64,000 nt of DNA from Verrucomicrobiota bacterium (GCA_017305195.1 JAFKMU010000049.1:38638-102637); one strand, 5' to 3'; shown: positions 11,790 to 59,945, counted from the first letter of the stretch. Program-made: numbers and translations. The notes: a model not told the origin generated them from the sequence alone.

Positions 11790-14208
<2,419 letters not shown>

Positions 14209-41835: not shown

Positions 41836-41860
41836 AAGCCCCGGCGGGGCCTGTGTTTTA
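41833..41860. terminator. Bidirectional intrinsic terminator-like hairpin between the convergent lpxA and larC genes (aaaaGCCCCggcGGGGCctgtgtttt).
   Basis: A GC stem of 5 bp with a 3-nt loop, flanked by A-run and T-run. Direct read. Confidence 0.45.
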
Positions 41861-43246
41861 GCTTCCCGCCGTGGGCGAAGGAACGCTGCCGATCCAGGCG
41901 GCGAGATGCACGTCGCGCACGCTGACTCCGGCGCGCTGGGCCACCTCGCGGCAGGATTCATACTCCGGCGCGGCCTGCACGATCTCGTCGCCGAGGAAGC
42001 CGACCTTGATGCGCACGGTGCCATAGGGCGTCTCGACGTCGCGGAATTCGCGGCGGAGCTTCATGCGCTGCATGCGGTCGAGGCGGATGCCAAAGGCGCT
42101 GGTTTCGCGCAGGATGATCGTCGCGATCTCGTCGACCTTCTCCGGCTGCACCAGCACCGTCAGCAGGAAGCCGGGCCGGTTCTTCTTCATCTGCGCGGCG
42201 GTGTAAAAGACATCGAGTGCCCCGGCGGCGAAGAGACGTTCCATCGTGGCCCCGGCCAGCTCGGGCGTGAGGTCGTCGATGTTGGTCTCGATCTTCACGA
42301 TCTCGTCGGTCTCCGCGCTGGAGTTGCTGGTGGTTTCGCCCAGCGTGGCGCGGAGGACGTTCGGGCGCGGGTAGGTGTCGCGGGTGCCGAGGCCGTAGCC
42401 GACTTTCTCGATGCGCATCTCGGGCATCGGTCCGTAGGAGGAGCAATACTCCGCGAGCAGGGCCGCGCCGGTCGGCGTGATATACTCGGTCGATTCTTCG
42501 ACCTGCTTCAGCGGGATGCCTGCGAGGATCTCCAGCGTGGCGGGCGCGGGCAGGGGGAAGCGGCCATGGGCGCAGTCAATCCACCCAGAGCCCTCGACCA
42601 GACGCGAGGCCAGGACACACTCGATGCCGAGGGCGTCAATACCGGCGCAGGCCGCCACGATGTCGGCGATGGAATCAATCGCGCCGACCTCGTGAAAGGT
42701 GATCTCCTCGGGATCGATGCCGTGGATTTTGCCCTCGGCGAGGGCGATACGGTGAAAGACGGCGAGGGCGCGGGCCTTCGGGGCTTCGGCGAGCGTACTG
42801 GCTTCGAGGAGCGCGCGGATTTCGCGGTAGCTGCGGCCATGGGCGTGGTCACACCCCTCGTACTGATGCGCATGCTCGTGACTGTGCTCATGGGAATGCT
42901 CCCCATGCTCGTGCTCATGCGCGTGAGAGTGGGTATGTTCGCCGTGCTCGTGGCTGTGGGTATGCTCGTGCGAATGGCCGTGCTCGTGCTGATGCCCGCC
43001 ATGTTCATGGGAGTGCCCATGCTCCCCGTGGGAATGCCCGTGATCGTGGGCGGCGTGAACGTCGAATTTCCACCCGGCGATATTTTGCTTGTGGCCGCGC
43101 CGGAAGTGGATGTGAAACTCCTCCGCCAGCCCGAGCGAGGCGATGGCCTGCTGGAAAACCTCCTCCGGTACGCCGAGGTCGCGCAAGGCGCCGACGGTCA
43201 TGTCGCCGCTGATGCCGGAGAAACAATCGAGATAAAGGGTGCGCAT
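41858..43246 (-). CDS. larC: LarC-family nickel insertion protein (pyridinium-3,5-bisthiocarboxylate mononucleotide nickel chelatase homologue, DUF111). It carries a roughly 65-aa His-rich insertion.
   Basis: N-terminal MRTLYLDCFSGISGDM typical of LarC/UPF0272 and a C-terminal LarC2-like domain. An insert of (H-x)n repeats lies at aa 65-130: HDHGHSHGEHGHSHEHGGHQHEHGHSHEHTHSHEHGEHTHSHAHEHEHGEHSHEHSHEHAH. Confidence 0.75.
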   Translation of the reverse strand: MRTLYLDCFSGISGDMTVGALRDLGVPEEVFQQAIASLGLAEEFHIHFRRGHKQNIAGWKFDVHAAHDHGHSHGEHGHSHEHGGHQHEHGHSHEHTHSHEHGEHTHSHAHEHEHGEHSHEHSHEHAHQYEGCDHAHGRSYREIRALLEASTLAEAPKARALAVFHRIALAEGKIHGIDPEEITFHEVGAIDSIADIVAACAGIDALGIECVLASRLVEGSGWIDCAHGRFPLPAPATLEILAGIPLKQVEESTEYITPTGAALLAEYCSSYGPMPEMRIEKVGYGLGTRDTYPRPNVLRATLGETTSNSSAETDEIVKIETNIDDLTPELAGATMERLFAAGALDVFYTAAQMKKNRPGFLLTVLVQPEKVDEIATIILRETSAFGIRLDRMQRMKLRREFRDVETPYGTVRIKVGFLGDEIVQAAPEYESCREVAQRAGVSVRDVHLAAWIGSVPSPTAGS

Positions 43247-43283
43247 GGCGGGAGAGTGCGAGGTGTGCGGAGGTTAAAGCGCC

Positions 43284-44081
43284 TTAGTTCGAAGGCTTGA
43301 GGACGCCGCTGGCGAGGGGGAGCACGGTATTGGCTCCGCCCGTGACGACGGTGGTGGGGGCGACGCCGTTCCATTTGTCGACGGCGCGGAGCTCGAGGAT
43401 CTTCGGGTTTTGCGAGAGGGCGTCGGCGATGACCTTGATCGACTTGGCCTCGCCCTCGGCCTTGATGATGGCGGTCTCGGCCTCGATGCGCGTCTGGTCC
43501 TGGGTGAAGCGCGCCTGGGCGGCCTTTTGCTCGCTGACCATCTTTTGCTCGATGGCCTTCTCAAGTTCCGAGGAAAGGGCGATGTCCTCCAGCACGAGGT
43601 CGTCGATGGTGACGATATCGCCGAGCTTCTGGCGGAGAAGGTCGAGGGCGGCGCGTTTCACCTGCTCGCGCTCCTTCACGATCTTCTCGGCGGTGCGCTG
43701 GGCGGTGACCTCTTTGATGGCCTCCTGCGTGCGCGGCTTGAGGATGGAGTTTTCCACGCTGCCGCCGTAGTCGACGTAGAGCTTCACGATCTGGTTGAGC
43801 GGGAACTGGTAATTCACCGTGATCGTGGCGGTGACGGTCTGGAGGTCGGAGCTGAAGCACTGGGTGGGAAACTTCAGCGTCTGCACCTTCACGGGCACCT
43901 CGACGATGCGGGTGACAAAGGGCGTACGCAGCCCGGTGCCGCTCGGGAGCGGGGCGGGATCGACCGTGCCCAGGGTGATTTTCACCCCCGCGAGACCGGG
44001 ATTGACCACGTAAAAGGAGTTCATCAGCAGAATGGCGGCGATGATCAGGACGATGACGACGAGGGTACCGGCGGCTTTCAT
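43284..44081 (-). CDS. SPFH/Band-7 (prohibitin/HflC-like) membrane protein.
   Basis: N-terminal TM, an SPFH domain and a coiled-coil with an EAxxA-type region. Confidence 0.8.
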   Translation of the reverse strand: MKAAGTLVVIVLIIAAILLMNSFYVVNPGLAGVKITLGTVDPAPLPSGTGLRTPFVTRIVEVPVKVQTLKFPTQCFSSDLQTVTATITVNYQFPLNQIVKLYVDYGGSVENSILKPRTQEAIKEVTAQRTAEKIVKEREQVKRAALDLLRQKLGDIVTIDDLVLEDIALSSELEKAIEQKMVSEQKAAQARFTQDQTRIEAETAIIKAEGEAKSIKVIADALSQNPKILELRAVDKWNGVAPTTVVTGGANTVLPLASGVLKPSN

Positions 44082-44177
44082 GAAAATGGTGTTGGCGCGG
44101 AGAGGCTCCGGGCGTCCTGGAAGCTTAGAGAGCAGGGCCGGGGAGGCAAGAAAACGATGCTTGCCGCCCTACGCAGG

Positions 44178-45161
44178 TCAGGCGGGGAAGGCGGAAATCC
44201 GCTCCCCGTTGCGCAGGCGGGAGCGGAGGTCGGCCAGCCGGGCGTCGATTTCCACGAGCCGGGTGACCATGGCCTGCTCCTCCGGGCCGGGCGTGATGAC
44301 ATCCTGCACCGCGCCGTGACGGATGACGAGGCGGCGGGACCCCGAGAGGGCCAGCAGCGGGTCGTGGGTGGAGAGCAGAACGATCTTGCCCTTGCGCACG
44401 AAGAGATCGAGGGCGGCGCGGCGGTCCACCCCGGCATTCTCGATTTCGTCGATGAGGACGACGGGCTTTGGGCTGAGAAAGGCCGCGTCGGCGATCATGA
44501 GGGCGCGGGACTGGCCGCCGCTCAACTGCGTGACCTGGGTGTCGGCGTCGAAGGGTTCGCCCGCCATCGCCACGGCGGCGCGGAGGACCTGGTCGACGAT
44601 GGGCGCGGGATCGGTCAATGCCCGGCTCTCCGCATGCATGTGGAGGAACTCGCCGACGGGCAGGTCGATGACGAAGTTCATATTCTGCGAAATCTGCGCG
44701 ACCAGCCCGCTTTCCCCCGAGAAGCGCTCGGCGTCGCCGGGCGGCTGGCCATTGATGAGCACCTGGCGGCCCGTCGGGGTGTCGCGCTGGGCGAGGCACT
44801 CGATGTCGGCCAGCAGGCGGCTCTTCCCGGCTCCGGTCGGCCCGACGAGGCAGACGACATCGCCGGGGGCAAAGCGCAGGTCGTACCGTTCGGGCGCGCC
44901 GCTTTTGTCCCGACCGCGCAGCACGTCGAGCGAATGCAGCGCCATTTCCCTGCCGGGTGGGCGGTCGAGGGTGAGAAACTCCGCATACCGCGCGGCGAGC
45001 GTCTCCGGGTCGAGGCCGGTATCCTCGCGCTGCTCCCACGTGAGCGCGGCCCAGTAGGCCTCGGGCGAACCCGCATCCGCGCGGGCGGGGAGATGGTGCA
45101 GGCGCAGGAACTCGGCGAACCTCGCGGCGTCAAAGGGCGCGGGCGAAAGGGCGGTGGTCAT
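44178..45161 (-). CDS. Soluble ABC-type ATPase with an N-terminal extension of about 110 aa and no adjacent permease. Start is internal (MTTALSPAPF); the track ORF is extended to 45563.
   Basis: Walker A GPTGAGKS, signature LSGGQ, Walker B VVLIDE and an H-loop STHD. I confirmed ATG at 45159-45161 on the minus strand. Its start overlaps the stop of the upstream GTPase gene. Confidence 0.7.
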   Translation of the reverse strand: MTTALSPAPFDAARFAEFLRLHHLPARADAGSPEAYWAALTWEQREDTGLDPETLAARYAEFLTLDRPPGREMALHSLDVLRGRDKSGAPERYDLRFAPGDVVCLVGPTGAGKSRLLADIECLAQRDTPTGRQVLINGQPPGDAERFSGESGLVAQISQNMNFVIDLPVGEFLHMHAESRALTDPAPIVDQVLRAAVAMAGEPFDADTQVTQLSGGQSRALMIADAAFLSPKPVVLIDEIENAGVDRRAALDLFVRKGKIVLLSTHDPLLALSGSRRLVIRHGAVQDVITPGPEEQAMVTRLVEIDARLADLRSRLRNGERISAFPA

Positions 45162-45847
45162 GACGGGATGGGGATCTTGCGCACGGTGCCGTGCTGGTGG
45201 TCGGACCCGATGCGCGTCTCGCCGAGGCAGTACGAGCACACGGCGGTGGGCACGGAAAAGCGCAGCCGCCCGCCCTCCAGCACTCCGTTCTCCGAGGCGC
45301 TCCGCCAGATGCGCGCGGCTTCCCAGGCGCCCTGGCCGGTGATGCCATTGACAAAGAGGATGCGGGCGCGGGGATTCACCTGCCGCACGCGGAAGGCGAA
45401 GACCTCGCGCTCGGCCTGGCTGACGATGTCGCCCTTGGTGATGACGACGAGGTCGGCGGTCTTCAGCATCGGGCCGACTTTGCGTGGGGTATTGACTCCC
45501 GACAGCGCATCGAGCACGCAGACGGCGAGGAATCCCCGGATGTGCGGCGCGCAGCGATTGCACAGCCCCGCGCTCTCGGTCACGAGGAGGTCGAGGCCCA
45601 GTCGCTCGCCCCAGGCGGCGCAGTCCTCGATGTTGGAGATGAAGTAGTGGTCGGGGCAGAAGCCCGAGGAAATGCCCACCAGCGCCGGGATCTCGTGCCG
45701 CTCGAAGACGGCGGCATCCTGCGTGCTCAGGCAGTCAAACTTCACCACGCCCACGCGCAGCCCGTCATCGCGCAGGGCGAGGAGCGTGCGCACGATGAGG
45801 CTGGTCTTGCCGCTGGAGGGCGGCCCGGCGACGGTGACGAGGCGCAT
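45158..45847 (-). CDS. G3E-family P-loop GTPase (HypB/UreG/CobW-like metallochaperone-type).
   Basis: Walker A GPPSSGKTS, ESAG motif followed by CxxC (LCNRC), and an NKxD-like TKGD. The size (229 aa) matches HypB/UreG. Confidence 0.55.
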   Translation of the reverse strand: MRLVTVAGPPSSGKTSLIVRTLLALRDDGLRVGVVKFDCLSTQDAAVFERHEIPALVGISSGFCPDHYFISNIEDCAAWGERLGLDLLVTESAGLCNRCAPHIRGFLAVCVLDALSGVNTPRKVGPMLKTADLVVITKGDIVSQAEREVFAFRVRQVNPRARILFVNGITGQGAWEAARIWRSASENGVLEGGRLRFSVPTAVCSYCLGETRIGSDHQHGTVRKIPIPS

Positions 45848-45853
45848 GGCGTT

Positions 45854-46906
45854 TCAGCGGGCGGAGTTGAAGATTGCGAGCAGTTCCTCGCGCAGCGCGT
45901 CGAGGTCGTGCGAGCGGATGAAATCCCACCCCATCCACGAGAGCCTGCCCGGGAGCGGCTGCTGACCGGGATGGCTGTAGGCAAAGGGAATACCGACAGA
46001 CTCGATGTAGGCCGCCCACTCGGGGCCGAGCAGGTAGCGCAGCGCGAGGTCGCTGGCGGGGCGGCGGCTGCGCTTGCCGAGGAGCATGAGCGGATTGAAC
46101 CACGCGCCTTCCTCGGGCCAGATGACCTCGGCGGCGGGACCACGCACGGCCTTGGCAAAGAAGCCATTGAGCACGAAGACCGCCGTGCCCTGCGGGCTGC
46201 CCAGCCCGGCGAGCTTCGCCATGCGGGCGGGGGGCGAGAACTCCGCCACGTTGCGGGCCAGCGCCTTCACGCCCTCCTCGCCGTGGTGCTTCCAAGTGTT
46301 GAAAAGCAGCACGTCGGGGGCGCGGCCATGGTGGCCCGCGATGGTGACGTCGCCCTGGTAGATGGGATCGAGCACGTCCTGCCACGAGCGCGGGGCGGGG
46401 CGGCCTTTCAGCTTGTCGTGGTCCACGAGGAGGAGCGAGGGAAACGCGCCGTAGATGGTGATGCCGCCGCACGGGTCGATGATTCCCGCCTCCGCCAGCT
46501 CGGGGCGAATCTCCAGCCCGCCCGTCGCGATGGGCGAGAGGATGCCGGTTTCGATCCAGCGGCGGTGGGCCTCGGGTTTGAAGAAATCGCTATTCCCGCC
46601 ATCGCTGATCAGGCCGGGGAGGGTTTCCTCCGTGCCGTTCTGCCAGACGAGGTCGTAGGGATCGTCGCCGCCGCAGCCATTGGGCGAGAACCACTCCACG
46701 GGGCCAAACTCCGCCTCGTGTCGACGGAAGTGCAGGTGGAGCTGGCGCTGCATTTCCTGCCGGATCGGGCAGGGGGCGTAGCCGAGGAAGTCGAGGGCGC
46801 GCGGCTTCGCGCCATAGGTTTCGGGAAAGGAGGGAATCTCCTCCTGCGGGTCGATGTCGGCGATGGGCGTGGGCATGGCGGTAGTGTGAGGTTCACTTCC
46901 CACCAA
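45854..46906 (-). CDS. Hypothetical cytoplasmic protein resembling a solute-binding-protein fold, with no signal peptide.
   Basis: 350-aa ORF co-directional with, and 7 bp upstream of, the GTPase gene. The SBP-like impression rests on overall pattern only and is weak. Confidence 0.35.
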   Translation of the reverse strand: MVGSEPHTTAMPTPIADIDPQEEIPSFPETYGAKPRALDFLGYAPCPIRQEMQRQLHLHFRRHEAEFGPVEWFSPNGCGGDDPYDLVWQNGTEETLPGLISDGGNSDFFKPEAHRRWIETGILSPIATGGLEIRPELAEAGIIDPCGGITIYGAFPSLLLVDHDKLKGRPAPRSWQDVLDPIYQGDVTIAGHHGRAPDVLLFNTWKHHGEEGVKALARNVAEFSPPARMAKLAGLGSPQGTAVFVLNGFFAKAVRGPAAEVIWPEEGAWFNPLMLLGKRSRRPASDLALRYLLGPEWAAYIESVGIPFAYSHPGQQPLPGRLSWMGWDFIRSHDLDALREELLAIFNSAR

Positions 46907-47038
46907 GGCAGAGCCGCTACCCTTCGCTCATCGAAGGATGCCCCTGCACCCAAGGCAGCTTGAGTTCGCCGGGAGAATACCGTCGGGCGCGGCGGGCGTC
47001 AATTCCGCGTGATGCCCGGGCGTTGTCGACAGATGCCG

Positions 47039-47836
47039 CTACACGATCTCGCAGCGAGGCCCGGCTTCCTTGATGGCGCGGATGGCGCAGGCGGGCAGGG
47101 CGCTGTCGGAGAGGACGTGGTGGACCTTGCCGAGCGGCGCGACCTTGATGAAGCCCGCCTTCTCCCACTTGCTGGAGTCGGCCAGGAGATAAACCTCGCG
47201 CGATGCGTCGATCATGGCGCGCTTCATCTGGGCGATTTCCGTCGTAGTGTCGGTGAGGCCGCTGGCGGCGTCAAAGGCCTGCGTGCCGAGGAAAAGACGC
47301 GAGATGTTGAACTCCGACAGGGCGTGCAAAGCCTGCGGGCCGAGCGTGCTCGACGACGTACGGCTGTAGGTTCCGCCCAGGAGAATGAGTCGGCAGCGCA
47401 GATGCGCGCCCACGGCAGCGGCGACGTTGAGGGCGTTGGTCACGATGGTGATGTCGTCGACCTCGGTGAGAAAGGGGACCATCTCCACGGCGGTCGTTCC
47501 GGCGTCGATGAGAATGATGTCGCGCGGGCGGACGTGGCGGGCGGCGGCCGCGGCGATGGCGCGCTTTTGCGTGGAGTTCAGCCCCTGGCGCTCCTCCATG
47601 CCGGAGAGCGACGTAAGCAGGGTGCGGCCGGGCAGGGTGCGCACGGCTCCTCCATGTTCGCGCCGCAGGAGTCCCTCCTCCTCCATGGCGGCGAGGTCGG
47701 CCCGCACGGTGACGGTGGAGACGGCGAAGTGCTTTGCCAGATCGCGCACCCGCACCACGCCCTGCCGCTGGAGTTGCTCCAGGATGGCATCGCGGCGCTG
47801 GGTGGTCGAGAGGTCTTGGGGGAGCGGGGTAGGCAT
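47039..47836 (-). CDS. fruR: DeoR/GlpR-family transcriptional regulator, probably the fructose-operon repressor. Start is internal (MPTPLPQDLS); the track ORF is extended to 47986.
   Basis: N-terminal HTH (VRVRDLAKHFAVSTVTVRADL) and a DeoR C-terminal sugar-phosphate sensor domain. It is divergent from fruA. Confidence 0.8.
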   Translation of the reverse strand: MPTPLPQDLSTTQRRDAILEQLQRQGVVRVRDLAKHFAVSTVTVRADLAAMEEEGLLRREHGGAVRTLPGRTLLTSLSGMEERQGLNSTQKRAIAAAAARHVRPRDIILIDAGTTAVEMVPFLTEVDDITIVTNALNVAAAVGAHLRCRLILLGGTYSRTSSSTLGPQALHALSEFNISRLFLGTQAFDAASGLTDTTTEIAQMKRAMIDASREVYLLADSSKWEKAGFIKVAPLGKVHHVLSDSALPACAIRAIKEAGPRCEIV

Positions 47837-47926
47837 GCTCAAACGAAAGATAGAGAAATCAAAAGCCGGGGAAATGATAAAAATTTCCGCACAGAGTTTT
47901 ATTTCTCTTGCGCAAAACGAAAGCAA

Positions 47927-49708
47927 ATGAAAGTATGCGCCCAAGTTCCCCCGCAGTACCCCGTTTCCATCTCCCCCATGAAACACCTCGTCGCAGTCGT
48001 ATCTTCCTCAGCCGCCCCGGCTCATTCCCAACTCGCATCGGAGGCGCTCCGCTCCGTCGGCGCTGCGATGGGGTATGAGGTCGCGGTGGAAATTCCCACC
48101 CTAACCGCGCCGCTCTCCGCCAGCCAGATCGCCGCTGCCGAGGCGGTGATCCTCGCGTCGGACGCGAAAGTCGACGCCTCGCGCTTCGCGGGCAAGCAGG
48201 TCTACGGGACGCGGGTGAGCGAGGCGATTCGCGATACACGGGCCATCCTGGAGGCGGCACTCCAGCTTGCCACGATCCCGGCAGGCGCGCCGGTTTCCGC
48301 TCCCGCCGCCGCTCCGGCTGCGCCGCAGGGCGTGAAAAAACTCGTCGCCATCACCTCCTGTCCCACGGGGATCGCTCATACCTTCATGGCGGCCGAGGCG
48401 CTGCAAAAGGCCGCCAGGGCGCTCGGGTACGAGATCAAGGTCGAGACGCAGGGTTCCGTGGGGGCGAAAAACACGCTGACCGCCGAGGATGTCGCCGCCG
48501 CCGATGCCGTGGTGATCGCGGCGGAAACGAAGGTCGACCTTTCGCGCTTCGCCGGGAAGCCCATCTACTCGACCGGCACGAAGGAAGCCATCCACGCCGG
48601 GCAGAAAGTCCTCCAGACCGCGCTGGAACAGCCGAAGAGCGATTCTCTCGCCAGCTCGGTCGAAAAGCTGAAAGCTGAGAGATCGCGGTCCCGCACCGGC
48701 CCGTACAAGCACCTCATGACAGGCGTTTCCTACATGCTGCCCGTCGTCATCGCGGGCGGCCTGTCCATCGCGCTGGCCTTTGCCTTCGGCGGCATTTATG
48801 CGGGCAAGCAGGAGGGAACTCTCGCGGCGGCGCTCACCCTCATCGGCGGCGACGTGGCGTTTCATCTCTTCGTCGCGGTCTTCGCGGGATTTATTGCCTT
48901 TTCCATCGCCGACCGGCCCGGCATCACGCCCGGCCTCATCGGCGGCATGCTGGCGCAGAACCTCGGCGCGGGCTTCCTCGGCGGCATCGCGGCGGGTTTC
49001 CTCGCGGGCTACCTGACGAAGTTCCTCGCGGAAAAGATCAAGCTCCCGGCCACGCTGGAGGGCTTGAAGCCTGTGCTCATCCTGCCCTTTCTCAGCTCCA
49101 TCATCGTCGGCCTCGCCATGATCTACATCATCGCGCCGCCGGTGCAGGTGGTGCTCTCGGCGCTGACGACGTGGCTCCAGGGCATGCAGGGCGCGAACGC
49201 CCTCCTGCTCGGCGTGATCCTCGGCGGCATGATGGCCTTTGACATGGGAGGACCAGTCAATAAAGCCGCCTACACCTTTGCCGTCGGCCTGCTGGCCAGC
49301 AAGGTCTACGCGCCGATGGGCGCGGTGATCGTGGCGGGCATGACCCCGGCGCTCGGCGTGGCCGTGGCGGCGTGGCTCTTCCGCAATCGCTTCGATGTCG
49401 AGGAGCGCGAGGCGGCGGGTCCAGCCTTCGTGCTCGGGCTGTCATTCATCACGGAGGGGGCGATTCCCTTCGCTGCGAAAGATCCGGTGCGCGTGATCCC
49501 GGCGCTCATCGCGGGTTCCGCCGTGGGCGGGGCGCTGGCGATGTGGAGCGGTGTGCTTTTCCTCGTGCCGCATGGCGGGATCTTTGCCGCCATCATCCCC
49601 GGCGCGGTGCAGCACCTCGGGGCCTTCTTCATCGCGCTGGTGGCTGGAACGCTGGTGACCGTGGCCGCGCTCTTCCTCGTCAAGAAACCCATCGCAGCCC
49701 AGGCCTGA
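47927..49708 (+). CDS. fruA: PTS fructose-specific EIIB'BC component. An alternative start is at 47978 (MKHLVAVV); the track ORF 47009.. is over-extended.
   Basis: Degenerate IIB', a true IIB (ITSCPTGIAHTFMAAEAL) and a IIC membrane domain. Confidence 0.8.
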   Translation: MKVCAQVPPQYPVSISPMKHLVAVVSSSAAPAHSQLASEALRSVGAAMGYEVAVEIPTLTAPLSASQIAAAEAVILASDAKVDASRFAGKQVYGTRVSEAIRDTRAILEAALQLATIPAGAPVSAPAAAPAAPQGVKKLVAITSCPTGIAHTFMAAEALQKAARALGYEIKVETQGSVGAKNTLTAEDVAAADAVVIAAETKVDLSRFAGKPIYSTGTKEAIHAGQKVLQTALEQPKSDSLASSVEKLKAERSRSRTGPYKHLMTGVSYMLPVVIAGGLSIALAFAFGGIYAGKQEGTLAAALTLIGGDVAFHLFVAVFAGFIAFSIADRPGITPGLIGGMLAQNLGAGFLGGIAAGFLAGYLTKFLAEKIKLPATLEGLKPVLILPFLSSIIVGLAMIYIIAPPVQVVLSALTTWLQGMQGANALLLGVILGGMMAFDMGGPVNKAAYTFAVGLLASKVYAPMGAVIVAGMTPALGVAVAAWLFRNRFDVEEREAAGPAFVLGLSFITEGAIPFAAKDPVRVIPALIAGSAVGGALAMWSGVLFLVPHGGIFAAIIPGAVQHLGAFFIALVAGTLVTVAALFLVKKPIAAQA

Positions 49709-49718
49709 GGACCATCCC

Positions 49719-52175
49719 ATGATCGAGCTGACGCCCAAGAACATCCAGCTCCACGCGCGAGCCGGGAACAAGGAAGAGGCCATCCGCGAGGCGGGCCGCC
49801 TGCTCGTCGAGCTGGGGTGCATCGACCCCGGCTACATCGAGAGCATGCTGGCCCGCGAGCAGCAGGCGAATACCTTTCTCGGCAATGGCATCGCCATCCC
49901 GCATGGGTTGCAGAAGGATCGCGAGCTAATTCATCGCACGGGCGTGGCGGTCGTGCAGGTGCCTCTCGGCGTCGAGTGGAATCCCGGCCAGATCGTGCGC
50001 GTCATCATCGGCATCGCGGCAAAATCCGACGAACACATCGAGGTGCTGGCCGCGCTCACCGACGTGCTGGACAATGACTCGATGGCCGCCCAGCTCGCGC
50101 AGACCAGCAGCGCGGCGGACATCATTCTCGGCCTCACGGCCCGCCAGCAGGCGGGGGCGGTGGTGGAGGAACTCGCGGGCGCGGATTTCGCCGATGTCTT
50201 CGTCGCAGGCAAGGCCGGGCTGCACGCCCGACCGGCCACGCATTTCGCGGAACTAGCCAATACTTTCGCCAGCACGATTCAGGTGCGGTTCAAAGACAAG
50301 GCGGCCAATGGCAAGTCGATGGCCTCGCTGCTCAAGCTCGGCGTGCACGGCGGCGCGACGATCCGGCTGCTCGCCAGCGGGCCGGATTCCCAGGAGGCCT
50401 TGCGCGCCCTCGCGGCGGCGGTGGCCGACGGGCTGGGGGAGAGTGAGGAAACCGAGGCGGCGATCATCCCGGCGGCGCATTGGGAGCCGGTCGGCACGGT
50501 TGCGTCGCTGGAGGGCGTGTCCGGTGCGCCCGGCGTGGGCATTGGCCCGGTTTTTCATTACGGCGTCGAGCGCATCGAGACCTCGGAGGAATCGCGCGGC
50601 GCGGATATCGAGTCGGCGGCGCTGCGGCATGCGCTGGCCGATGCGGCGGCGGAGTTGCAGCAGATCCAGGCGGACGTGGAGCAGCGCAGCGGGAAAGGGC
50701 AGGCGGCCATCTTTCGCGCTCACCTCGCGCTGCTCAGCGACGCCGAGCTTCTCGAAGAGGTTTACCTGAAGATCGACAGCGGAAAATCCGCCGCATGGGC
50801 GTGGCAGCAGGCCATCGAGCGCCGCGTGGCGGAGTTTCGCCAGATCGAAAACGAACGCCTGGCCGAGCGCGCGGCGGATTGGAACGACGTGGGCCGCCGG
50901 GTTCTCCGCCTCCTCGCGGGCGTGAAAAACGAAGGGCCGGTATTGCCTTCCACGCCGGGCATTTTGGTGGCGGAAGACCTCGCGCCCTCCGACACCGCGC
51001 GGCTCGATCCCGCGCTCATTCTCGCCATCTGTACGGCGGGCGGGGGACCGACCGCGCACACGGCGATCATTGCCCGGTCGCTCGACATTCCCGCCATCGT
51101 CGGCCTCGGCGCGTCGGTGCACGACATCCCGGCGGGCACAGTCTGCATCGCGGATGGCGCAGCCGGGCGGCTCTACACCGCACCGTCGGCGGATGATCTT
51201 GAATCGGCGCGGAAATTTCAGCAAACCCTGGCCGCGCGCAATGACGAGGCCAGCCGTGAACGCTTCGCTCCCGCCCTCATGCTCGACGGCCATCGCGTCG
51301 AGGTGGTGGCCAATATCGGCAAGCTCTCCGAGGCCGCCGCCGCCGTGGAGGCTGGAGCGGAGGGCGTCGGGCTCATGCGCACGGAATTCCTCTTCCTCGA
51401 CCGCGACGAACCCGCCTCGGAGGATGAGCAGGCGGAGATTTACACCGGGATGATCCAGGCGCTCAACGGCCTGCCGCTCATCCTGCGCACCCTCGACATC
51501 GGCGGCGACAAGCTCGCCTCCTACATCACGCTGCCCAAGGAGGAAAACCCCTTCCTCGGCGTGCGCGGCATCCGGCTCTGCCTCCAGCAGCCCGACCTTT
51601 TCATCCCGCAGCTCCGCGCCATCTACCGCGCGGCATTGACTGGCCCCGTGCGCATCATGTTTCCCATGATCTCGACGCTGGAGGATCTGCGCGCCGCGAA
51701 GGAACTGGCGGAAACCGTGCGCGCCCAGATCGGAGCGCCGCCGGTCGAGATCGGCATCATGATCGAGGTGCCCTCCAGCGTCATCATGGCCCCGGAGCTG
51801 GCCCGCGAGGTGGATTTCTTTTCCATCGGGACGAACGACCTCACGCAATACGCCCTCGCCATGGACCGCCTGCACCCGACCCTGGGCAAGAACGTCGACG
51901 GCCTGCACCCCGCCGTGCTGCGCCTCATCGACATGACCGTGCGGGCCGCGAAGGCTGCGGGCAAATGGGTGGGCGTCTGCGGCGGCATCGCCGGGGAGCC
52001 TCTCGGCGCGGCCCTGCTCACGGGACTCGGCGTGGAGGAGCTCAGCATGAGCCTGCCCAGCGTCCCCGCCGTGAAGGCCCACCTGCGCAAGCTGCGCTTC
52101 ACCGAGGCCGCCGACATGGCCCGCCGCGCGCTGGCCTGCTCGACCGCTGCTGAGGTGCGCAACCTGGGGAAATAA
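49719..52175 (+). CDS. fruB: Multiphosphoryl transfer protein: a fused EIIA(Fru)-HPr-Enzyme I.
   Basis: IIA(Mtl/Fru) (GNGIAIPHG), HPr (GLHARPAT) and EI domains (PEP-utilising His and TIM barrel: GGGPTAHTAIIARSL ... GTNDLTQY). Confidence 0.85.
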   Translation: MIELTPKNIQLHARAGNKEEAIREAGRLLVELGCIDPGYIESMLAREQQANTFLGNGIAIPHGLQKDRELIHRTGVAVVQVPLGVEWNPGQIVRVIIGIAAKSDEHIEVLAALTDVLDNDSMAAQLAQTSSAADIILGLTARQQAGAVVEELAGADFADVFVAGKAGLHARPATHFAELANTFASTIQVRFKDKAANGKSMASLLKLGVHGGATIRLLASGPDSQEALRALAAAVADGLGESEETEAAIIPAAHWEPVGTVASLEGVSGAPGVGIGPVFHYGVERIETSEESRGADIESAALRHALADAAAELQQIQADVEQRSGKGQAAIFRAHLALLSDAELLEEVYLKIDSGKSAAWAWQQAIERRVAEFRQIENERLAERAADWNDVGRRVLRLLAGVKNEGPVLPSTPGILVAEDLAPSDTARLDPALILAICTAGGGPTAHTAIIARSLDIPAIVGLGASVHDIPAGTVCIADGAAGRLYTAPSADDLESARKFQQTLAARNDEASRERFAPALMLDGHRVEVVANIGKLSEAAAAVEAGAEGVGLMRTEFLFLDRDEPASEDEQAEIYTGMIQALNGLPLILRTLDIGGDKLASYITLPKEENPFLGVRGIRLCLQQPDLFIPQLRAIYRAALTGPVRIMFPMISTLEDLRAAKELAETVRAQIGAPPVEIGIMIEVPSSVIMAPELAREVDFFSIGTNDLTQYALAMDRLHPTLGKNVDGLHPAVLRLIDMTVRAAKAAGKWVGVCGGIAGEPLGAALLTGLGVEELSMSLPSVPAVKAHLRKLRFTEAADMARRALACSTAAEVRNLGK

Positions 52176-52179
52176 TTTC

Positions 52180-53106
52180 ATGAACCAAGCCGCCTACGAC
52201 TGCCTCTCCGTCGCCCTCAACCCGGCGATCGACCACTCGCTTTCCATCCCGCACTTCGCCCCGGGAAAAGTCAATCGCGTCGCCGCCGAGGAGAGCCATG
52301 CGGCGGGGAAGGGCGTGAATGTCGCCGTGGCCGTGGCTCGCGCGGGATTCCGCGTGGCTGTCTCCGGTTTCCTGGGCGAGGACAATGCCGGGTCCTTTGA
52401 GACGCTCTTCCGCAAGTATGCCGTGGCCGATGAATGCGTGCGCATCGCCGGGTCCACCCGCACGGGCATCAAGATTACCGATCCGGCGAACCAGACCACG
52501 ACGGACATCAACTTCCCCGGCGCGGAGCCGACTGCCGACAATGTGGCCGAGCTGCGGGAACGAATCGCAAGCCTTGACGCCCGGTGGGCGGTGTTGGCCG
52601 GCAGTCTGCCGCCGGGCGTCCCGGTTTCCATCTACGAGGAACTCACCGCCGACTTCGCGCGGCGCGGCATCCGGGTGGCAGTCGATACCAGCGACCGGCC
52701 GCTGCAGTTTGCCATCGCGGCCAAGCCGAGCGTGATCAAGCCCAACATCCACGAGCTGGAGGCCATCACGGGCCGGACTCTCAAGTCGCGGGCCGAGGTG
52801 CTCGCCACCGCGCGGGAGCTGGTCGCCTGCGGCATCGAGTGCGTCATTGTCTCCATGGGCGTGGACGGCGCGCTCTTTGTCACCGCCGCCGAGGCTTTGC
52901 TGGCCGTGCCGCCGCAGCTCCTCATCCGCACCACCGTGGGCGCGGGCGACGCCATGGTCGCCGGGTGGATCGCCGCCAGCCTGCGCGGCCTCCCGCTGGA
53001 AAAGGCCGCCCGCCTCGCCACCGCTTTTTCCCTCGCGGCCATCGACGTCAGCCCGAGGGACGAGCCCCGCAGCTATTTCCCCTGCATCCAGATCACCCAA
53101 CTCTAA
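52180..53106 (+). CDS. fruK: 1-phosphofructokinase (PfkB family).
   Basis: PfkB motifs (GKGVNVA ... GAGDAMVAG), sited in the fru operon. Confidence 0.85.
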   Translation: MNQAAYDCLSVALNPAIDHSLSIPHFAPGKVNRVAAEESHAAGKGVNVAVAVARAGFRVAVSGFLGEDNAGSFETLFRKYAVADECVRIAGSTRTGIKITDPANQTTTDINFPGAEPTADNVAELRERIASLDARWAVLAGSLPPGVPVSIYEELTADFARRGIRVAVDTSDRPLQFAIAAKPSVIKPNIHELEAITGRTLKSRAEVLATARELVACGIECVIVSMGVDGALFVTAAEALLAVPPQLLIRTTVGAGDAMVAGWIAASLRGLPLEKAARLATAFSLAAIDVSPRDEPRSYFPCIQITQL

Positions 53107-53122
53107 CCTAACAACACCCCCT

Positions 53123-55778: not shown

Positions 55779-56018
55779 ATGGCGTATAAGCAGAAATGCG
55801 GCGGCTGCGGGCGGTGTCCGCGGGGGAACGAGGCGGGGCGGGCGGTGCTCGCGGCGATGTACCAGGAGGTGCTGTTTCAGCCCGGGCGGCGTGATCCGTG
55901 GCAGCGGGAGGCGGCGCGGCTGGCGGCGCAATACCTCGCCACGGGGCGCGAGGCGCACCGGCTGGCCTTTGCCCGGCACGTGGCCGGAATGCTCCACGCG
56001 GAGGCGGGGCGGGAATGA
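55779..56018 (+). CDS. Small Cys-containing ORF (roughly 52-96 aa depending on start) translationally coupled (ATGA) to the primase-like gene. Start is uncertain.
   Basis: Its stop TGA overlaps the ATG of the next gene at 56015-56018. It contains CGGCGRCP and is preceded by the inverted repeat TCTGCTTAT-N17-ATAAGCAGA (55747-55781). Confidence 0.3.
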   Translation: MAYKQKCGGCGRCPRGNEAGRAVLAAMYQEVLFQPGRRDPWQREAARLAAQYLATGREAHRLAFARHVAGMLHAEAGRE

Positions 56019-57409: not shown

Positions 57410-57595
57410 ACATCGCCCCGGCGTCAATACTCACACCCCCGGCAACCCACAACGACCACCCACCATAACCCCGGCAACCAACCACGAACACAACCCCGAG
57501 CCCGCCATTCACCGGCAGGCCCACCGGAGCCGAACCACCGCTTCCCTCCGCGCCAAGTCTGAAAACTGAACCACTGAAAACTCACCACTACCTCT

Positions 57596-58804: not shown

Positions 58805-58809
58805 TCGCC

Positions 58810-58970
58810 GGGATTTCGTTGCGCAGCCTAAGGGGAGCCGTCCTGCAATGAAGCGCAATGAAACCCGCAACGGGCCTGCAATGAACCGCTTTTCTCCTCG
58901 GCGAGAGTGAAATGGACGTGAAATGGGAGCCTGCAATGAAGGAGGGGAATTTCTCTCCTTCATTGCACGG
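58810..58970. repeat. Iteron-like repeat cluster A: multiple copies of a CTGCAATGAA / GTGAAATGG motif, a 63-bp unit (58853-58915) also present at 59771-59833, and a perfect hairpin TGCAATGAAGGAG-N10-CTCCTTCATTGCA (58933-58968).
   Basis: Direct sequence comparison of the two loci. The unit copies are about 88% identical. Confidence 0.6.
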
Positions 58971-59085
58971 GTCCTGCCCTCGCCGGGAGGGGGAACTTCG
59001 GCGTTCCCACCGCTCCAGAGAGAGTCGGAGCGAAGAGGCTGGGGGACGGAGGGTGTGTATAGACCACCCTCCGCCCCGACTGCTC

Positions 59086-59640: not shown

Positions 59641-59707
59641 TCTGAGTTCCTTGGCTGCCAGCTAAGTCTTTGCCGCCAGCAGCGAAGCCGAGGCTAGGAA
59701 ATGCCCG

Positions 59708-59900
59708 GCGGGATTTCAATCCTCATTTCATTGCAGGAAATCCCCCTTAGGGCGTGCAATGAGCAATGAGGCGCAATGAAACCCGAAACGGGCCTGCAAC
59801 GAACCCGCTTTCCCCTCGTAAAGAGTGAAATGGCCCGGAAACGAGCCGCTGCAAGGAACCGCGATTTTTCGCCCCCTTTCATTTCACCCCCGCACCGCTA
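59708..59900. repeat. Iteron-like repeat cluster B: GCAATGA and TCATTGC motifs in both orientations, a second copy of the 63-bp unit (59771-59833), and an inverted segment of the cluster A 5' end (GGATTTC...GAAATCC).
   Basis: Direct sequence comparison with cluster A. Confidence 0.6.
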
Positions 59901-59945
59901 AGGCTCCGCATTGACCCCGCACCGCGCTTCGCTTATTCCCGTGCG

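What the first reader, a model, noticed from the sequence alone, without database searches (positions are those of the whole stretch)
41858..46906. Co-directional cluster: His-rich LarC-family Ni insertase, SPFH protein, permease-less ABC ATPase, G3E GTPase and a binding-protein-like protein. A candidate undescribed metallocofactor or nickel-trafficking system.
Five minus-strand genes are tightly packed. The ABC/GTPase pair is translationally coupled (ATGA overlap) and the hypothetical gene follows only 7 bp upstream of the GTPase. The canonical Lar partners LarA, LarB and LarE are not in the window, so this LarC homologue may work in a different pathway from lactate-racemase cofactor synthesis. 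A soluble ABC ATPase with an extra N-terminal domain about 110 aa long, a HypB/UreG/CobW-like GTPase (ESAG then CxxC) and a periplasmic-binding-fold protein lacking a signal peptide do not match a described operon.
Basis: partly seen in the sequence, partly recalled or inferred. Interest (0 to 1): 0.7.

Follow-up and report, generated by a model that had tools for sequence, protein, structure and literature searches.

The report
Conserved metal-chaperone gene trio beside LarC
The five genes are not one system: three of them form a widespread, still uncharacterised GTPase/ABC-ATPase/binding-protein module that other microbes switch on when molybdenum is scarce. The nickel-insertase gene LarC only happens to lie next to it in this lineage.

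Summary
All five minus-strand genes are real and tightly packed, as described. They are not a conserved unit.

- **The conserved unit.** A cytoplasmic SBP-fold protein, a Cys-rich G3E GTPase and a permease-less ABC ATPase occur as a complete trio in 75 of 80 genome loci. These span Verrucomicrobiota, Desulfobacterota, Bacillota, Proteobacteria and Methanosarcina.
- **LarC and SPFH.** They adjoin the trio only in this species and one near-identical genome. In related Terrimicrobiaceae, LarC keeps its place beside the LpxA–RadC–PBP2 block and no trio is present.
- **Prior mention.** The trio matches two Azotobacter vinelandii operons, Avin_02430-02410 and Avin_00450-00480. These were reported in 2022 as Mo-repressed, VnfA1/σ54-activated and conserved in V-nitrogenase bacteria; their function is unknown.
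- **Linked genes elsewhere.** The trio sits with ModE boxes, modABC, nif/vnf/anf, NifV and Fec-type importers.
- **Protein evidence.** GTPase–ABC fusion proteins exist. The GTPase has six invariant Cys and two invariant His at HypB/UreG-like positions.

Best reading: a nucleotide-driven cytoplasmic metallochaperone module, with Mo/V the most likely cargo and Fe the rival. A nickel/Lar link is not supported. This is a new member of a noticed but uncharacterised kind.

The parts
45854..46876 (-). Cytoplasmic solute-binding-fold protein (SBP_bac_6). It is the first gene of the conserved trio. The ORF extends to 46906, but gene callers start it at Met11 (340 aa).
   Evidence: - PF13343 at 154 bits; no NCBIfam model matches.
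- No signal peptide. Homologues carry an N-terminal DUF1858 domain instead.
- The AF2 model has pLDDT 91. The nearest folds are the FbpA/FutA/AfuA/PotD/P5PA class.
- Conserved residues: Cys46 (70/83), D144, W175, W263-P-E-x-G and W324-x-G-W.
45158..45847 (-). Cys-rich G3E P-loop GTPase, HypB/UreG-like but outside both families. It is the core of the trio.
   Evidence: - PF02492 at 52 bits. HypB scores 50.3 against a cutoff of 121; UreG scores 38.3 against 204.
- Best PDB sequence hits are UreG 5xkt (6e-11) and HypB 2hf8.
- It is 52-74% identical across phyla.
- Invariant in 62/62 sequences: C64, H67, C96, C99, H102, C204, C207. C110 is present in 61/62.
- Only 63 clusters at 50% identity reach E<=1e-30 among 1.84e9 proteins.
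44178..45161 (-). Soluble ABC ATPase with an N-terminal four-helix domain and a long C-terminal helix. It is translationally coupled to the GTPase gene.
   Evidence: - ABC_tran covers residues 93-239. The ATGA overlap is confirmed.
- It is 46-67% identical in 75 loci and never has its own permease.
- It occurs fused to the GTPase in P0036 and P0038.
- AF2 model: pLDDT 88.5, helices at 12-64, helix at 293-317.
- It has no close PDB relative.
43284..44081 (-). Membrane-anchored SPFH/Band_7 protein. It is a lineage-specific neighbour and not part of the conserved module.
   Evidence: - PF01145 at 102 bits.
- It lies next to the trio only in the window, L008 and L088-L091.
41858..43246 (-). LarC, the nickel insertase for the nickel-pincer nucleotide cofactor, with a His-rich insert. 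It is a neighbour and not part of the conserved module.
   Evidence: - PF01969 at 474 bits; TIGR00299 at 206.5 against a cutoff of 90; NF052512 at 155.5 against 50.
- Relatives of 60-70% identity are common in Terrimicrobiaceae.
- In L092 and L093 it keeps the LpxA-side synteny and no trio is present.
46974..47002 (-). Sigma-70-like promoter match (TTGACG-17-TATTCT) in the 162-bp gap between the DeoR gene and the binding-protein gene.
   Evidence: - It is a consensus scan hit only.
- No sigma-54 or ModE-type site was seen in this gap (by eye).
41838..41850 (.). GC-rich hairpin between the convergent LarC and LpxA genes. It is a possible bidirectional terminator marking the end of the gene run.
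   Evidence: Terminator-like hit GCCCCGGCGGGGC.

Best explanation
The run of five genes is two things placed side by side.

**1. LarC and the SPFH gene.** These are ordinary genes whose adjacency is peculiar to this lineage. LarC belongs to the syntenic block on its other side (LpxA, RadC, polyprenyl synthase, SDR, cupin, PBP2).

**2. The trio at 44178-46876.** This is an autonomous three-gene module found across Bacteria and in Methanosarcina. It consists of a cytoplasmic solute-binding-fold protein, a Cys/His-rich G3E GTPase related to HypB/UreG, and a soluble ABC ATPase. It is homologous to Azotobacter vinelandii Avin_00460-00480. By shared gene order and the encoded qRT-PCR primer motifs, it also matches Avin_02430-02410.

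**Most likely mechanism (inferred).** The module works as a nucleotide-driven cytoplasmic metallochaperone.
- The binding-fold protein captures the cargo after import.
- The GTPase dimer takes the cargo up at a HypB-like Cys/His site.
- The ABC ATPase, which is physically coupled to the GTPase, drives loading or release to a cofactor-assembly or apo-enzyme client.

My best guess for the cargo is the heterometal of Mo/V cofactors: molybdate or vanadate, and perhaps tungstate, handled under molybdenum scarcity. Iron is the main alternative.

**Shown**
- Gene content, order and coupling.
- Conservation across phyla.
- GTPase-ABC fusion proteins.
- Invariant Cys/His residues in the GTPase.
- Absence of a signal peptide and of a dedicated permease.
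- Neighbourhood and operator-site associations.
- Published regulation in A. vinelandii and M. acetivorans.

**Inferred**
- Metal binding.
- Identity of the cargo.
- Direction of transfer.
- Identity of the client.
For: **Conservation**
- A complete trio is present in 75 of 80 genome loci found with the binding protein. GTPase identity is 52-74% and ABC identity 46-67%.
- In Vibrio albus the trio stands alone among unrelated genes.

**Physical coupling**
- The genes are translationally coupled.
- GTPase-ABC fusion proteins exist: P0036 (613 aa) and P0038 (509 aa).

**Chaperone features of the GTPase**
- It has the G1 P-loop, ESAG and TKGD motifs.
- 'GFCPDH' aligns with the UreG Ni-binding 'GGCPH' motif.
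- By sequence comparison with the HypB motif recalled from memory (not aligned here), 'ESAGLC' resembles the HypB switch-II cysteine region.
- Six Cys and two His are invariant in 62/62 sequences.

**Cytoplasmic and permease-less**
- The binding protein has no signal peptide.
- No permease gene belongs to the trio. Where a FecCD permease is nearby, it has its own ATPase.

**Mo/nitrogenase link**
- modA/modB occur in 9-10 loci, directly upstream and co-directional in L039, L064 and L080.
- Nearby nitrogenase genes include VnfDK, AnfDK, NifD, NifK and NifN.
- NifV, the TIGR01616 nitrogenase-associated protein, HTH+PBP_like regulators, and TOBE, MoaE and NifX-like genes also recur.
- ModE-type palindromes number 16 against 3.65 expected and sit at the operon heads.
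- The Methanosarcina locus layout matches the ModE-bound ma1234-1224 cluster of PMC12327845.
- A sigma-54 consensus lies directly upstream of the trio in 11 loci.

**A. vinelandii (PMC9542535)**
- Both copies are silent with Mo and activated by VnfA1. TSS reads under Mo/V/Fe-only conditions are 1/2754/3616 and 1/152/3930.
- The locus identity is proven by exact primer matches. Protein identities to the window are 69%, 59% and 34%.
- The operon partners nitroreductase and glutamate-cysteine ligase fit reduction and thiol ligation of an oxyanion metal. The nitroreductase also follows the trio in five alphaproteobacterial loci.

**LarC as bystander**
Against: - No biochemical datum exists for any member, so metal binding itself is inferred.
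- 40 of 85 loci show neither Mo/nif genes nor importers within 10 kb.
- The module also occurs in organisms that, to my knowledge, are not diazotrophs (Fusobacterium, Coraliomargarita, Vibrio albus; not tested here).
- Some neighbours are cation importers rather than oxyanion systems. These include NRAMP in the D. desulfuricans group, ZnuA-type importers in Fusobacterium and Ruficoccus, and Fec-type importers with TonB receptors in about 20 loci. The published annotations call them iron transporters.
- A thiolate-rich site suits Fe(II), Ni, Zn or Co as well as reduced Mo or V.
- The binding protein's nearest folds are ferric-ion, sugar-phosphate and polyamine binders, not ModA. Its Cys46 is missing in 13 of 83 members.
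- The window copy has no ModE or sigma-54 site and no Mo gene nearby.
- In A. vinelandii one copy is led by a secreted Peripla_BP_2 protein. A transporter role with a permease encoded elsewhere therefore cannot be excluded.
Confidence: 0.6

Rival explanations
1. All five genes form one nickel or metallocofactor system in which LarC uses the GTPase, ABC ATPase and binding protein as dedicated nickel-delivery partners, in a pathway other than lactate racemase.
For: - In this species the five genes are co-directional with short gaps and no internal terminator-like site.
- The same layout is seen in L008 and in four metagenome contigs.
- The GTPase is closest to the nickel chaperones UreG and HypB.
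- hypD/hypE lie near the trio in one Desulfovibrio group.
- LarC has no known dedicated Ni donor (my knowledge).
Against: - LarC and SPFH are absent from the other 79 genome loci, including four Verrucomicrobiota.
- LarC relatives keep the LpxA-side synteny and have unrelated genes on the other side.
- The trio's recurrent partners are Mo/nitrogenase genes and importers, not nickel enzymes.
- No NikR-type site was found upstream of the trio in any locus fetched up to then.
- No NiCo riboswitch was found in the window or in the 21 loci scanned.
Confidence: 0.07
2. The trio is an iron (or general divalent-cation) chaperone or mobilisation system. It would receive Fe delivered by Fec-type, NRAMP or ZnuA-type importers and feed Fe-S or nitrogenase-cluster assembly. 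It would be induced when iron demand rises, for example during use of alternative nitrogenases.
For: - Peripla_BP_2, FecCD, FecE and TonB-receptor genes flank the trio in about 20 loci, often in one operon.
- NRAMP lies directly upstream in seven Desulfovibrio loci.
- ZnuA-type importers are adjacent in Fusobacterium and Ruficoccus.
- The binding protein's nearest folds include ferric-binding proteins.
- Published annotations call these 'iron ABC transporter' operons (PMC9542535 and PMC12327845).
- Cys/His sites suit Fe(II).
- A G3E precedent for iron exists in the nitrile-hydratase activator (my knowledge).
Against: - No Fur-box consensus was found upstream of the trio, including in the Vibrio loci where the E. 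coli-type box should apply.
- The FbpA Tyr-Tyr iron ligands are not conserved (compared with FbpA ligands from memory).
- Control by ModE and VnfA, together with modABC adjacency, points to Mo status rather than Fe status.
Confidence: 0.2
3. The three genes are parts of a conventional ABC importer. The permease would be encoded elsewhere, the binding protein would be mis-predicted as cytoplasmic, and the GTPase would be an accessory regulator.
For: - Generic annotations read 'ABC transporter substrate-binding protein' and 'ATP-binding protein'.
- In A. vinelandii a secreted Peripla_BP_2 gene leads the operon.
- All NBD motifs are intact.
Against: - No member of the SBP_bac_6-type family in alignment A1 has a signal peptide. 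Many carry an N-terminal cytoplasmic-type DUF1858 domain.
- No permease gene is part of the trio in any of 75 loci. Adjacent FecCD permeases always have their own ATPase.
- The ABC domain is fused to the GTPase in some species.
- The ABC ATPase is not close to any transporter NBD subfamily.
Confidence: 0.08

Closest known systems
Azotobacter vinelandii operons Avin_02430-02420-02410(-02400-02390) and Avin_00450-00460-00470-00480 (VnfA1 regulon; PMC9542535)
   Same: - The same three protein families occur in the same order.
- Avin_00470 is 69% identical to the window GTPase, Avin_00480 is 59% identical to the ABC ATPase, and Avin_00460 is 34% identical to the binding protein.
- Neither the window trio nor these operons include a permease.
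- The function is also unknown there. The authors only state that the operon is conserved in V-nitrogenase Proteobacteria and probably supports V-dependent N2 fixation.
   Different: - The Azotobacter copies have sigma-54 promoters with VnfA1 sites and are silent when Mo is present.
- They carry extra genes: nitroreductase and glutamate-cysteine ligase in one copy, Peripla_BP_2 in the other.
- The window copy has a sigma-70-like site, no such partners and no nitrogenase or Mo gene in 64 kb. It sits next to SPFH and LarC instead.
HypB/HypA and UreG/UreE nickel metallochaperones (G3E GTPases)
   Same: - It shares the G3E motifs and the SIMIBI-type G domain.
- A Cys-Pro-x-His motif lies at the UreG nickel site, and a Cys lies after the ExxG motif as in HypB (HypB comparison from memory).
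- Each has a dedicated metal-binding partner protein encoded next door.
   Different: - It scores far below the HypB and UreG family cutoffs.
- It has extra invariant residues C99, H102, C110 and a C-terminal CxxC.
- Its partners are a binding-fold protein and an ABC ATPase, not HypA/SlyD or UreE/F/D.
- It is not linked to hydrogenase or urease genes.
COG0523 GTPases (CobW, ZigA/ZNG1, YeiR) of Zur regulons
   Same: It follows the same logic: a G3E GTPase encoded with, or co-regulated with, the importer for a scarce metal and induced by starvation for that metal. Here the controls are ModE and VnfA rather than Zur.
   Different: - It lacks the CobW C-terminal domain (no such Pfam hit) and lacks the CxCC motif.
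- It belongs to a different G3E branch, nearer to HypB/UreG.
- It has an obligatory ABC ATPase partner.
SufBCD (and MCR component A2): soluble ABC ATPases in metallocofactor assembly or activation
   Same: It provides a precedent for an ABC ATPase without a membrane domain acting on a cytoplasmic metallocentre process (my knowledge).
   Different: - It shows no specific sequence or fold affinity to SufC.
- Its partners are entirely different.
NifQ (Mo donor for FeMo-co) and VnfZ (cytoplasmic paralogue of the vanadate-binding protein VodA)
   Same: - The proposed role, cytoplasmic handling of the nitrogenase heterometal, is the same.
- VnfZ shows that a signal-peptide-less binding-fold protein acts in the cytoplasm within the same regulon.
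   Different: - There is no sequence relationship to NifQ.
- VnfZ is a regulator partner from a different SBP family.
- The trio is much more widely distributed than nitrogenases.
Lar system (LarA/LarB/LarC/LarE) for the nickel-pincer nucleotide cofactor
   Same: The window's LarC is a bona fide full-length LarC with a His-rich tract.
   Different: - No LarA, LarB or LarE lies in the window or next to LarC in relatives.
- The trio is not a Lar component and does not travel with LarC.

Membership tests
Lar nickel-pincer cofactor system | A LarC protein with both LarC1 and LarC2 regions | tested here: met
   PF01969 covers residues 4-447 at 474 bits. TIGR00299 scores 206.5 (cutoff 90) and NF052512 scores 155.5 (cutoff 50).
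Lar nickel-pincer cofactor system | LarB, LarE and a LarA-type enzyme encoded with LarC | tested here: not met
   - None is among the window's genes. This rests on Pfam for 40 ORFs, on recognition by eye of the rest, and on the absence of an SGGxDS PP-loop in any frame.
- None lies next to LarC in L092-L094.
- The rest of the genome could not be searched.
Lar nickel-pincer cofactor system | The trio and SPFH genes co-occur with LarC across genomes | tested here: not met
   LarC and SPFH are adjacent to the trio in 1 of 80 genome loci, and that one is a 93-98% identical relative.
G3E P-loop GTPase metallochaperones | G1 P-loop, ExxG Walker B with Glu, and an [NT]KxD guanine motif | tested here: met
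   GPPSSGKT, ESAG and TKGD are all present and conserved. PF02492 scores 52 bits against a gathering score of 20.7.
G3E P-loop GTPase metallochaperones | Membership of a named subfamily (HypB, UreG, MeaB or COG0523) | tested here: not met
   - HypB scores 50.3 against a cutoff of 121.2.
- UreG scores 38.3 against 204.2.
- MeaB scores 18 against 240.
- The CobW-related model scores 19.7 against 180.
- There is no CobW_C domain.
G3E P-loop GTPase metallochaperones | Conserved Cys/His metal ligands at the dimer-interface positions | tested here: met
   - C64, H67 and C96 are invariant in 62/62 sequences.
- C64-P-D-H67 aligns with the UreG CPH motif.
G3E P-loop GTPase metallochaperones | GTP-dependent metal binding and transfer to a client | not testable with these tools
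   This needs biochemistry.
Binding-protein-dependent ABC importer | A secreted or lipid-anchored substrate-binding protein | tested here: not met
   No hydrophobic N-terminus occurs in the window protein or in 25 homologues. Several carry an N-terminal DUF1858 domain.
Binding-protein-dependent ABC importer | A membrane permease gene partnered with the ATPase | tested here: not met
   No permease is part of the trio in 75 loci. FecCD genes occur within 10 kb in 13-16 loci, and each of these FecCD genes has its own adjacent ATPase.
Binding-protein-dependent ABC importer | An ABC nucleotide-binding domain with Walker A/B, signature and H-loop | tested here: met
   GPTGxGKS, LSGGQSR, LIDEIEN and THDP are invariant in 29 sequences. 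PF00005 scores 53.5 bits.
A. vinelandii Avin_02430-02410 / Avin_00460-00480 type module | The three families in the order binding protein, GTPase, ABC ATPase, with high sequence identity | tested here: met
   - L096 is the Avin_00450 locus, shown by exact matches to the published primers.
- Identities to the window proteins are 34%, 69% and 59%, with E-values down to 7e-122.
A. vinelandii Avin_02430-02410 / Avin_00460-00480 type module | Mo-repressed expression through ModE, or through VnfA with sigma-54 | tested here: inconclusive
   - Such sites are found in 11 loci (sigma-54) and about 10 loci (ModE-type).
- None is seen in the window's 162-bp upstream gap, which has only a sigma-70-like match.
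- Expression was not measurable.
A. vinelandii Avin_02430-02410 / Avin_00460-00480 type module | The host encodes nitrogenase or alternative nitrogenase | not testable with these tools
   Only 64 kb of the genome is available, and no nif, vnf, anf or mod gene is in it.
SPFH/Band 7 family | A Band_7 domain with an N-terminal membrane anchor | tested here: met
   PF01145 covers residues 25-211 at 102 bits. A hydrophobic N-terminus is visible in the translation.

The most novel reading that the evidence does not exclude
The trio is a fifth, previously unrecognised branch of G3E metallochaperone systems. It would be the first dedicated to an oxyanion-derived metal.

- A cytoplasmic binding-fold protein captures molybdate or vanadate (perhaps tungstate).
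- The ABC ATPase and the Cys-rich GTPase convert it into a thiolate-bound form.
- The GTPase delivers it to FeMo-co or FeV-co assembly, or to Moco assembly.

This would fill the missing role of heterometal donor in the many organisms that lack NifQ, and would also supply Mo/W to other enzymes in non-diazotrophs such as this Verrucomicrobium.
Probability: 0.3. Interest if true: 0.85.

Novelty: new member of a known kind. Interest (0 to 1): 0.5.

Why it matters
How the heterometal reaches nitrogenase cofactors is only partly understood. NifQ is the known Mo donor, no donor is known for V, and to my knowledge NifQ is missing from many anaerobic diazotrophs.

- **A candidate for that step.** This module is tightly conserved and switched on by Mo scarcity in both Azotobacter and Methanosarcina. 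It combines a HypB/UreG-like GTPase with a soluble ABC ATPase and a cytoplasmic binding-fold protein.
- **A possible new G3E branch.** It may be a new branch of the G3E chaperones, of which only HypB, UreG, MeaB and COG0523 are currently recognised.
- **What this analysis adds.**
  - The module extends far beyond V-nitrogenase Proteobacteria.
  - The invariant ligand set of the GTPase is defined.
  - GTPase-ABC fusion proteins are documented.

Tried and rejected
**Rejected hypotheses**
- *Corrinoid-handling role.* It was suggested by BtuF-like Peripla_BP_2 and FecCD neighbours. No cobalamin, Moco or NiCo riboswitch was found in the window or in 21 loci.
- *The trio's ABC ATPase as the NBD of the adjacent FecCD permeases.* Every such permease has its own ATPase.

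**Negative or limited searches**
- Fur, Zur and NikR consensus searches upstream of the trio gave no convincing hits. The consensus sequences are enterobacterial, so a negative result is weak outside Proteobacteria.
- A NifA-type TGT-N10-ACA element upstream of the sigma-54 sites was found only in the Azotobacter locus, where it overlaps a VnfA1-type GTTC-N6-GTAC.
- The fold searches of the binding protein and the ABC ATPase gave only generic class matches. No model coordinates were available, so the pocket could not be mapped.
- NCBIfam and source names gave only generic labels.
- Literature searches on LarC neighbourhoods, DUF1858, G3E subfamilies, TunR, MA12xx locus tags and Fusobacterium found nothing on this module. 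The relevant papers surfaced through ModE and Azotobacter searches.
- Addo & Dos Santos 2020 and Hamilton 2011 are not held in the library.

**Inconclusive or technical**
- Homology between the ABC N-terminal four-helix domain and DUF1858 is only weakly supported (Pfam E 0.008-0.02; hhalign E 0.0024, probability 12%) and remains inconclusive.
- The first attempt to scan genomes with the full alignment failed because no conserved stretch was available. A reduced alignment worked.

Full report
**1. The observation**

The region 41858-46906 holds five minus-strand ORFs.
- A full-length LarC: PF01969 at 474 bits, TIGR00299 at 206.5 against a cutoff of 90, and LarC2 at 155.5 against 50.
- An SPFH/Band_7 protein.
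- An ABC ATPase whose ABC_tran domain starts at residue 93.
- A G3E GTPase: PF02492 at 52 bits, with HypB and UreG models far below their cutoffs.
- An SBP_bac_6 protein with no NCBIfam match.

The GTPase stop and the ABC start overlap as ATGA. The binding-protein gene ends 6 nt before the GTPase start.

Gene calls on four metagenome contigs of the same species give the same five genes. They start the binding protein at Met11 (340 aa; window 46876) and show a co-directional DeoR gene upstream.

A sigma-70-like match lies upstream of the binding-protein gene. A GC hairpin follows LarC. Nothing terminator-like separates ABC, SPFH and LarC. The description is therefore correct, and in this organism the five genes could be one transcript.

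**2. The five genes are not a conserved unit**

Homologues of the binding protein were found in Opitutales, Desulfovibrio, Calditerrivibrio and others. Annotated contexts showed binding protein, cobW-type GTPase and ABC_tran in that order, without LarC or Band_7.

A scan of one genome per species returned 80 loci. I ran tblastn with the five window proteins against them.
- 75 loci carry the complete trio. GTPase identity is 52-74% and ABC identity 46-67%, even in Methanosarcina.
- The exceptions are three Paenibacillus loci with the binding protein alone and two loci cut by contig ends.
- LarC and SPFH appear only in L008, Spartobacteria bacterium LR76, whose proteins are 89-98% identical to the window's.
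- Four other Verrucomicrobiota (Coraliomargarita, Ruficoccus, Puniceicoccales, JB024) have the trio alone.

Conversely, LarC relatives of 60-70% identity are abundant in Terrimicrobiaceae. In two of them LarC sits convergent to the same LpxA-RadC-polyprenyl synthase-SDR-cupin-PBP2-IF2-NusA block as in the window. On the other side are unrelated genes, with no trio and no SPFH. A third has yet another context.

LarC therefore belongs to the right-hand syntenic block, and the trio was juxtaposed to it in this lineage. No LarA, LarB, LarE or nickel permease is in the window or next to LarC in relatives.

**3. Anatomy of the trio**

*GTPase.*
- It has the G3E motifs GPPSSGKT, ESAG and TKGD.
- Its best solved relatives are UreG (6e-11) and HypB. 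Its 'GFCPDH' aligns with the UreG nickel-binding 'GGCPH'.
- Over 62 sequences, C64, H67, C96, C99, H102, C204 and C207 are invariant, and C110 is present in 61.
- The family is compact. Only 63 clusters at 50% identity reach E<=1e-30 among 1.84 billion representatives.

*Fusions.* Two representatives, P0036 (613 aa) and P0038 (509 aa), are GTPase-ABC fusions. Together with the translational coupling, this argues for a physical complex.

*ABC ATPase.*
- All NBD motifs are invariant, as is an invariant DIEC motif.
- It has no close solved relative or subfamily.
- Its N-terminal extension is predicted with confidence as a four-helix bundle (residues 12-64), followed by the NBD and a long C-terminal helix.
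- The extension is missing in the Desulfovibrio-type short forms.
- It resembles DUF1858 only weakly.

*Binding protein.*
- It lacks a signal peptide in all members of alignment A1. It often carries an N-terminal DUF1858 domain.
- It models confidently (pLDDT 91) as a class-II binding fold nearest to the FbpA/FutA/AfuA/PotD/P5PA proteins.
- Conserved positions are Cys46 (70/83), D144, W175, WPExG and WxGW. About a third of members end in a Cys-containing tail.

*Permease.* No permease belongs to the trio. Where FecCD permeases are nearby, each has its own ATPase. In Vibrio albus the trio stands alone among unrelated genes.

**4. What travels with it**

I clustered the flanking ORFs of all loci and typed the recurrent clusters. 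Two themes emerged.

*Metal importers.*
- Peripla_BP_2, FecCD and FecE with TonB receptors occur in about 20 loci.
- NRAMP lies directly upstream in seven D. desulfuricans-group loci.
- ZnuA-type importers occur in Fusobacterium and Ruficoccus.

*Molybdenum and nitrogenase.*
- modA/modB occur in 9-10 loci, directly upstream and co-directional in L039, L064 and L080.
- Nitrogenase genes nearby are VnfDK (L071, L077), AnfDK (L026), NifD (L023), NifK (L080) and NifN (L085).
- NifV, the TIGR01616 nitrogenase-associated protein, and HTH_3+PBP_like regulators recur. From memory, those regulators are the architecture of tungstate/molybdate-responsive TunR-type regulators.
- TOBE, MoaE, NifX-like and MoCF-domain genes also appear.

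Of 85 loci, 28 show the Mo/nif theme, 28 the importer theme, 11 both and 40 neither.

*Regulatory sites.*
- The Methanosarcina ModE operator (RTTATGT-N8-RCATAAY) occurs exactly once in all loci fetched up to that point. It sits at the head of the FecCD-FecE-BP2-trio operon of L053. The published ma1234 site is present with two mismatches in L054.
- A relaxed ModE-type palindrome gives 16 hits against 3.65 expected. The hits lie at operon heads beside the trio in Methanosarcina, Geobacter/Desulfuromonadales and related MAGs.
- A sigma-54 -24/-12 consensus lies directly upstream of the trio in 11 loci.
- No Fur, Zur or NikR consensus was found.
- No riboswitch was found.

**5. What is already published**

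*M. acetivorans.* PMC12327845 shows by EMSA that ModE binds upstream of ma1234. [quoted passage not shown] The L053 and L054 layout matches this cluster: FecCD, FecE, BP2, trio, NifV.

[quoted passage not shown] - Their data show TSS reads of 1, 2754 and 3616 under Mo, V and Fe-only conditions.
- A second operon, Avin_00450-00480, is a Class B target induced mainly without Mo and V. Its reads are 1, 152 and 3930, and qRT-PCR gives 2 against 46.

I recovered this second locus independently through an ABC homologue.
- The published Avin_00450 primers match it exactly.
- Its GTPase, ABC ATPase and binding protein are 69%, 59% and 34% identical to the window's.
- It has a sigma-54 site with a GTTC-N6-GTAC VnfA1-type motif about 130 bp upstream.
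- Its first gene is a secreted Peripla_BP_2.

The trio-plus-nitroreductase arrangement recurs in five alphaproteobacterial loci, some next to vnfDK.

No paper in the held library assigns a biochemical function.

**6. Interpretation**

*The best-supported reading.* The trio is a self-contained cytoplasmic, nucleotide-driven metallochaperone module of the G3E type.
- The HypB/UreG-like Cys/His positions argue for metal binding at a GTP-dependent dimer interface.
- The fusions and gene coupling argue that the ABC ATPase acts on the GTPase.
- The binding-fold protein is the obvious cargo receptor. It would be analogous in role to HypA or UreE.

*The cargo is not established.* I favour the Mo/V (or W) heterometal, for these reasons.
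- ModE and VnfA control the operon in two distant model organisms.
- ModE-type sites, modABC, nif/vnf/anf, NifV and Mo-type regulators sit next to it elsewhere.
- The reductase and thiol-synthesis genes in the Azotobacter operon would suit reduction and thiolate capture of an oxyanion.
- VnfZ is a precedent for a cytoplasmic binding-fold protein acting in the same regulon.

*Iron is the main rival.* The evidence for it is as follows.
- Fec-type, NRAMP and ZnuA-type neighbours recur.
- The binding protein has ferric-binding-protein-like folds.
- The published annotations call these operons iron transporters.

*Other models.*
- A conventional importer with a remote permease is unlikely. The binding protein is cytoplasmic, the GTPase is fused to the ABC ATPase in some species, and adjacent permeases have their own ATPases.
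- The nickel/LarC model fails on co-occurrence.
- For the window's own copy there is no nearby Mo, Fe or nitrogenase gene and no ModE or sigma-54 site. Its regulation and client in this Verrucomicrobium remain open.

**7. Novelty and verdict**

The five-gene 'LarC system' is not a real unit. The three-gene module is real, ancient and highly conserved. It has been noticed in the literature only as an uncharacterised member of Mo-responsive regulons, and databases annotate it generically.

The window adds a new member in a Terrimicrobiaceae-like Verrucomicrobium.

This analysis also adds several points about the kind itself:
- its breadth beyond diazotrophic Proteobacteria;
- the invariant ligand set;
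- the fusions;
- the cytoplasmic nature of the binding protein;
- the ModE and sigma-54 sites.

I rate it as a new member of a known but functionally unknown kind, of moderate interest. It would be of high interest if the Mo/V-chaperone reading proves right.

Noticed in passing
window 55898-63702: This looks like an integrated mobile element. It holds an AAA_25 ATPase with a MarR-type HTH (57596-58804), a NERD nuclease-related protein (60656-61546), an HNH_2 endonuclease (62722-63702) and several ORFs without family hits. G+C jumps to 71% at 56-58 kb.
   Followed up: partly
window 47039-54523: This is a complete fructose PTS locus in a Verrucomicrobium. It runs DeoR/FruR regulator, EIIB'BC, a fused EIIA-HPr-EI, 1-phosphofructokinase (52180-53106) and an OprB carbohydrate porin. 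It lies directly upstream of the trio and has the same elevated G+C (66-68%) as the trio.
   Followed up: partly
L049 (same as L005) 4522-7081 and 9734-12702; also L028, L068 and A. vinelandii: Several genomes carry two copies of the module. In L005/L049 the second copy has the permuted order GTPase, ABC, binding protein, and sits in a TonB-receptor/ExbBD/Peripla_BP_2 cluster. A. vinelandii has two differently regulated copies.
   Followed up: partly
P0036 and P0038: These are natural single-chain fusions of the G3E GTPase and the ABC ATPase (613 and 509 aa).
   Followed up: yes
L003/L047, L051 and L067 (Paenibacillus): Paenibacillus species have the binding-fold protein alone, without the GTPase or ABC ATPase. 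In P. tepidiphilus it lies divergent to a Band_7 + NfeD pair. This is curious, because an SPFH gene also follows the trio in the window.
   Followed up: no
Binding-protein family (alignment A1; 84 ORFs of cluster 0): About a third of members (30 of 84) end in a short tail with a Cys near the C-terminus (…CS, …CN, …CGS). Many carry an N-terminal DUF1858 domain. The window protein has neither. The ABC N-terminal four-helix domain may be a divergent DUF1858.
   Followed up: partly
L095 = NZ_CP084075.1 (PLSDB 'plasmid' pSB055A, 2.1 Mb): A 2.1-Mb Fusobacterium vincentii record is filed as a plasmid but is evidently a chromosome. It carries the trio followed by DUF6162, two ZnuA-type binding proteins, an ATPase and an ABC-3 permease.
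   Followed up: partly
window 41858-43246: At 462 aa the window's LarC is 30-55 aa longer than most of its 60-70% identical relatives, which are 401-430 aa. The likely cause is an expanded His-rich tract at about residues 60-135. The lengths were not aligned to confirm this.
   Followed up: no
window 18682-18776; 8795-9895; 18849-19331: Three further features are present: a bacterial small SRP RNA, an Mrp/NUBPL-type Fe-S carrier ATPase, and a Fur-family regulator.
   Followed up: no
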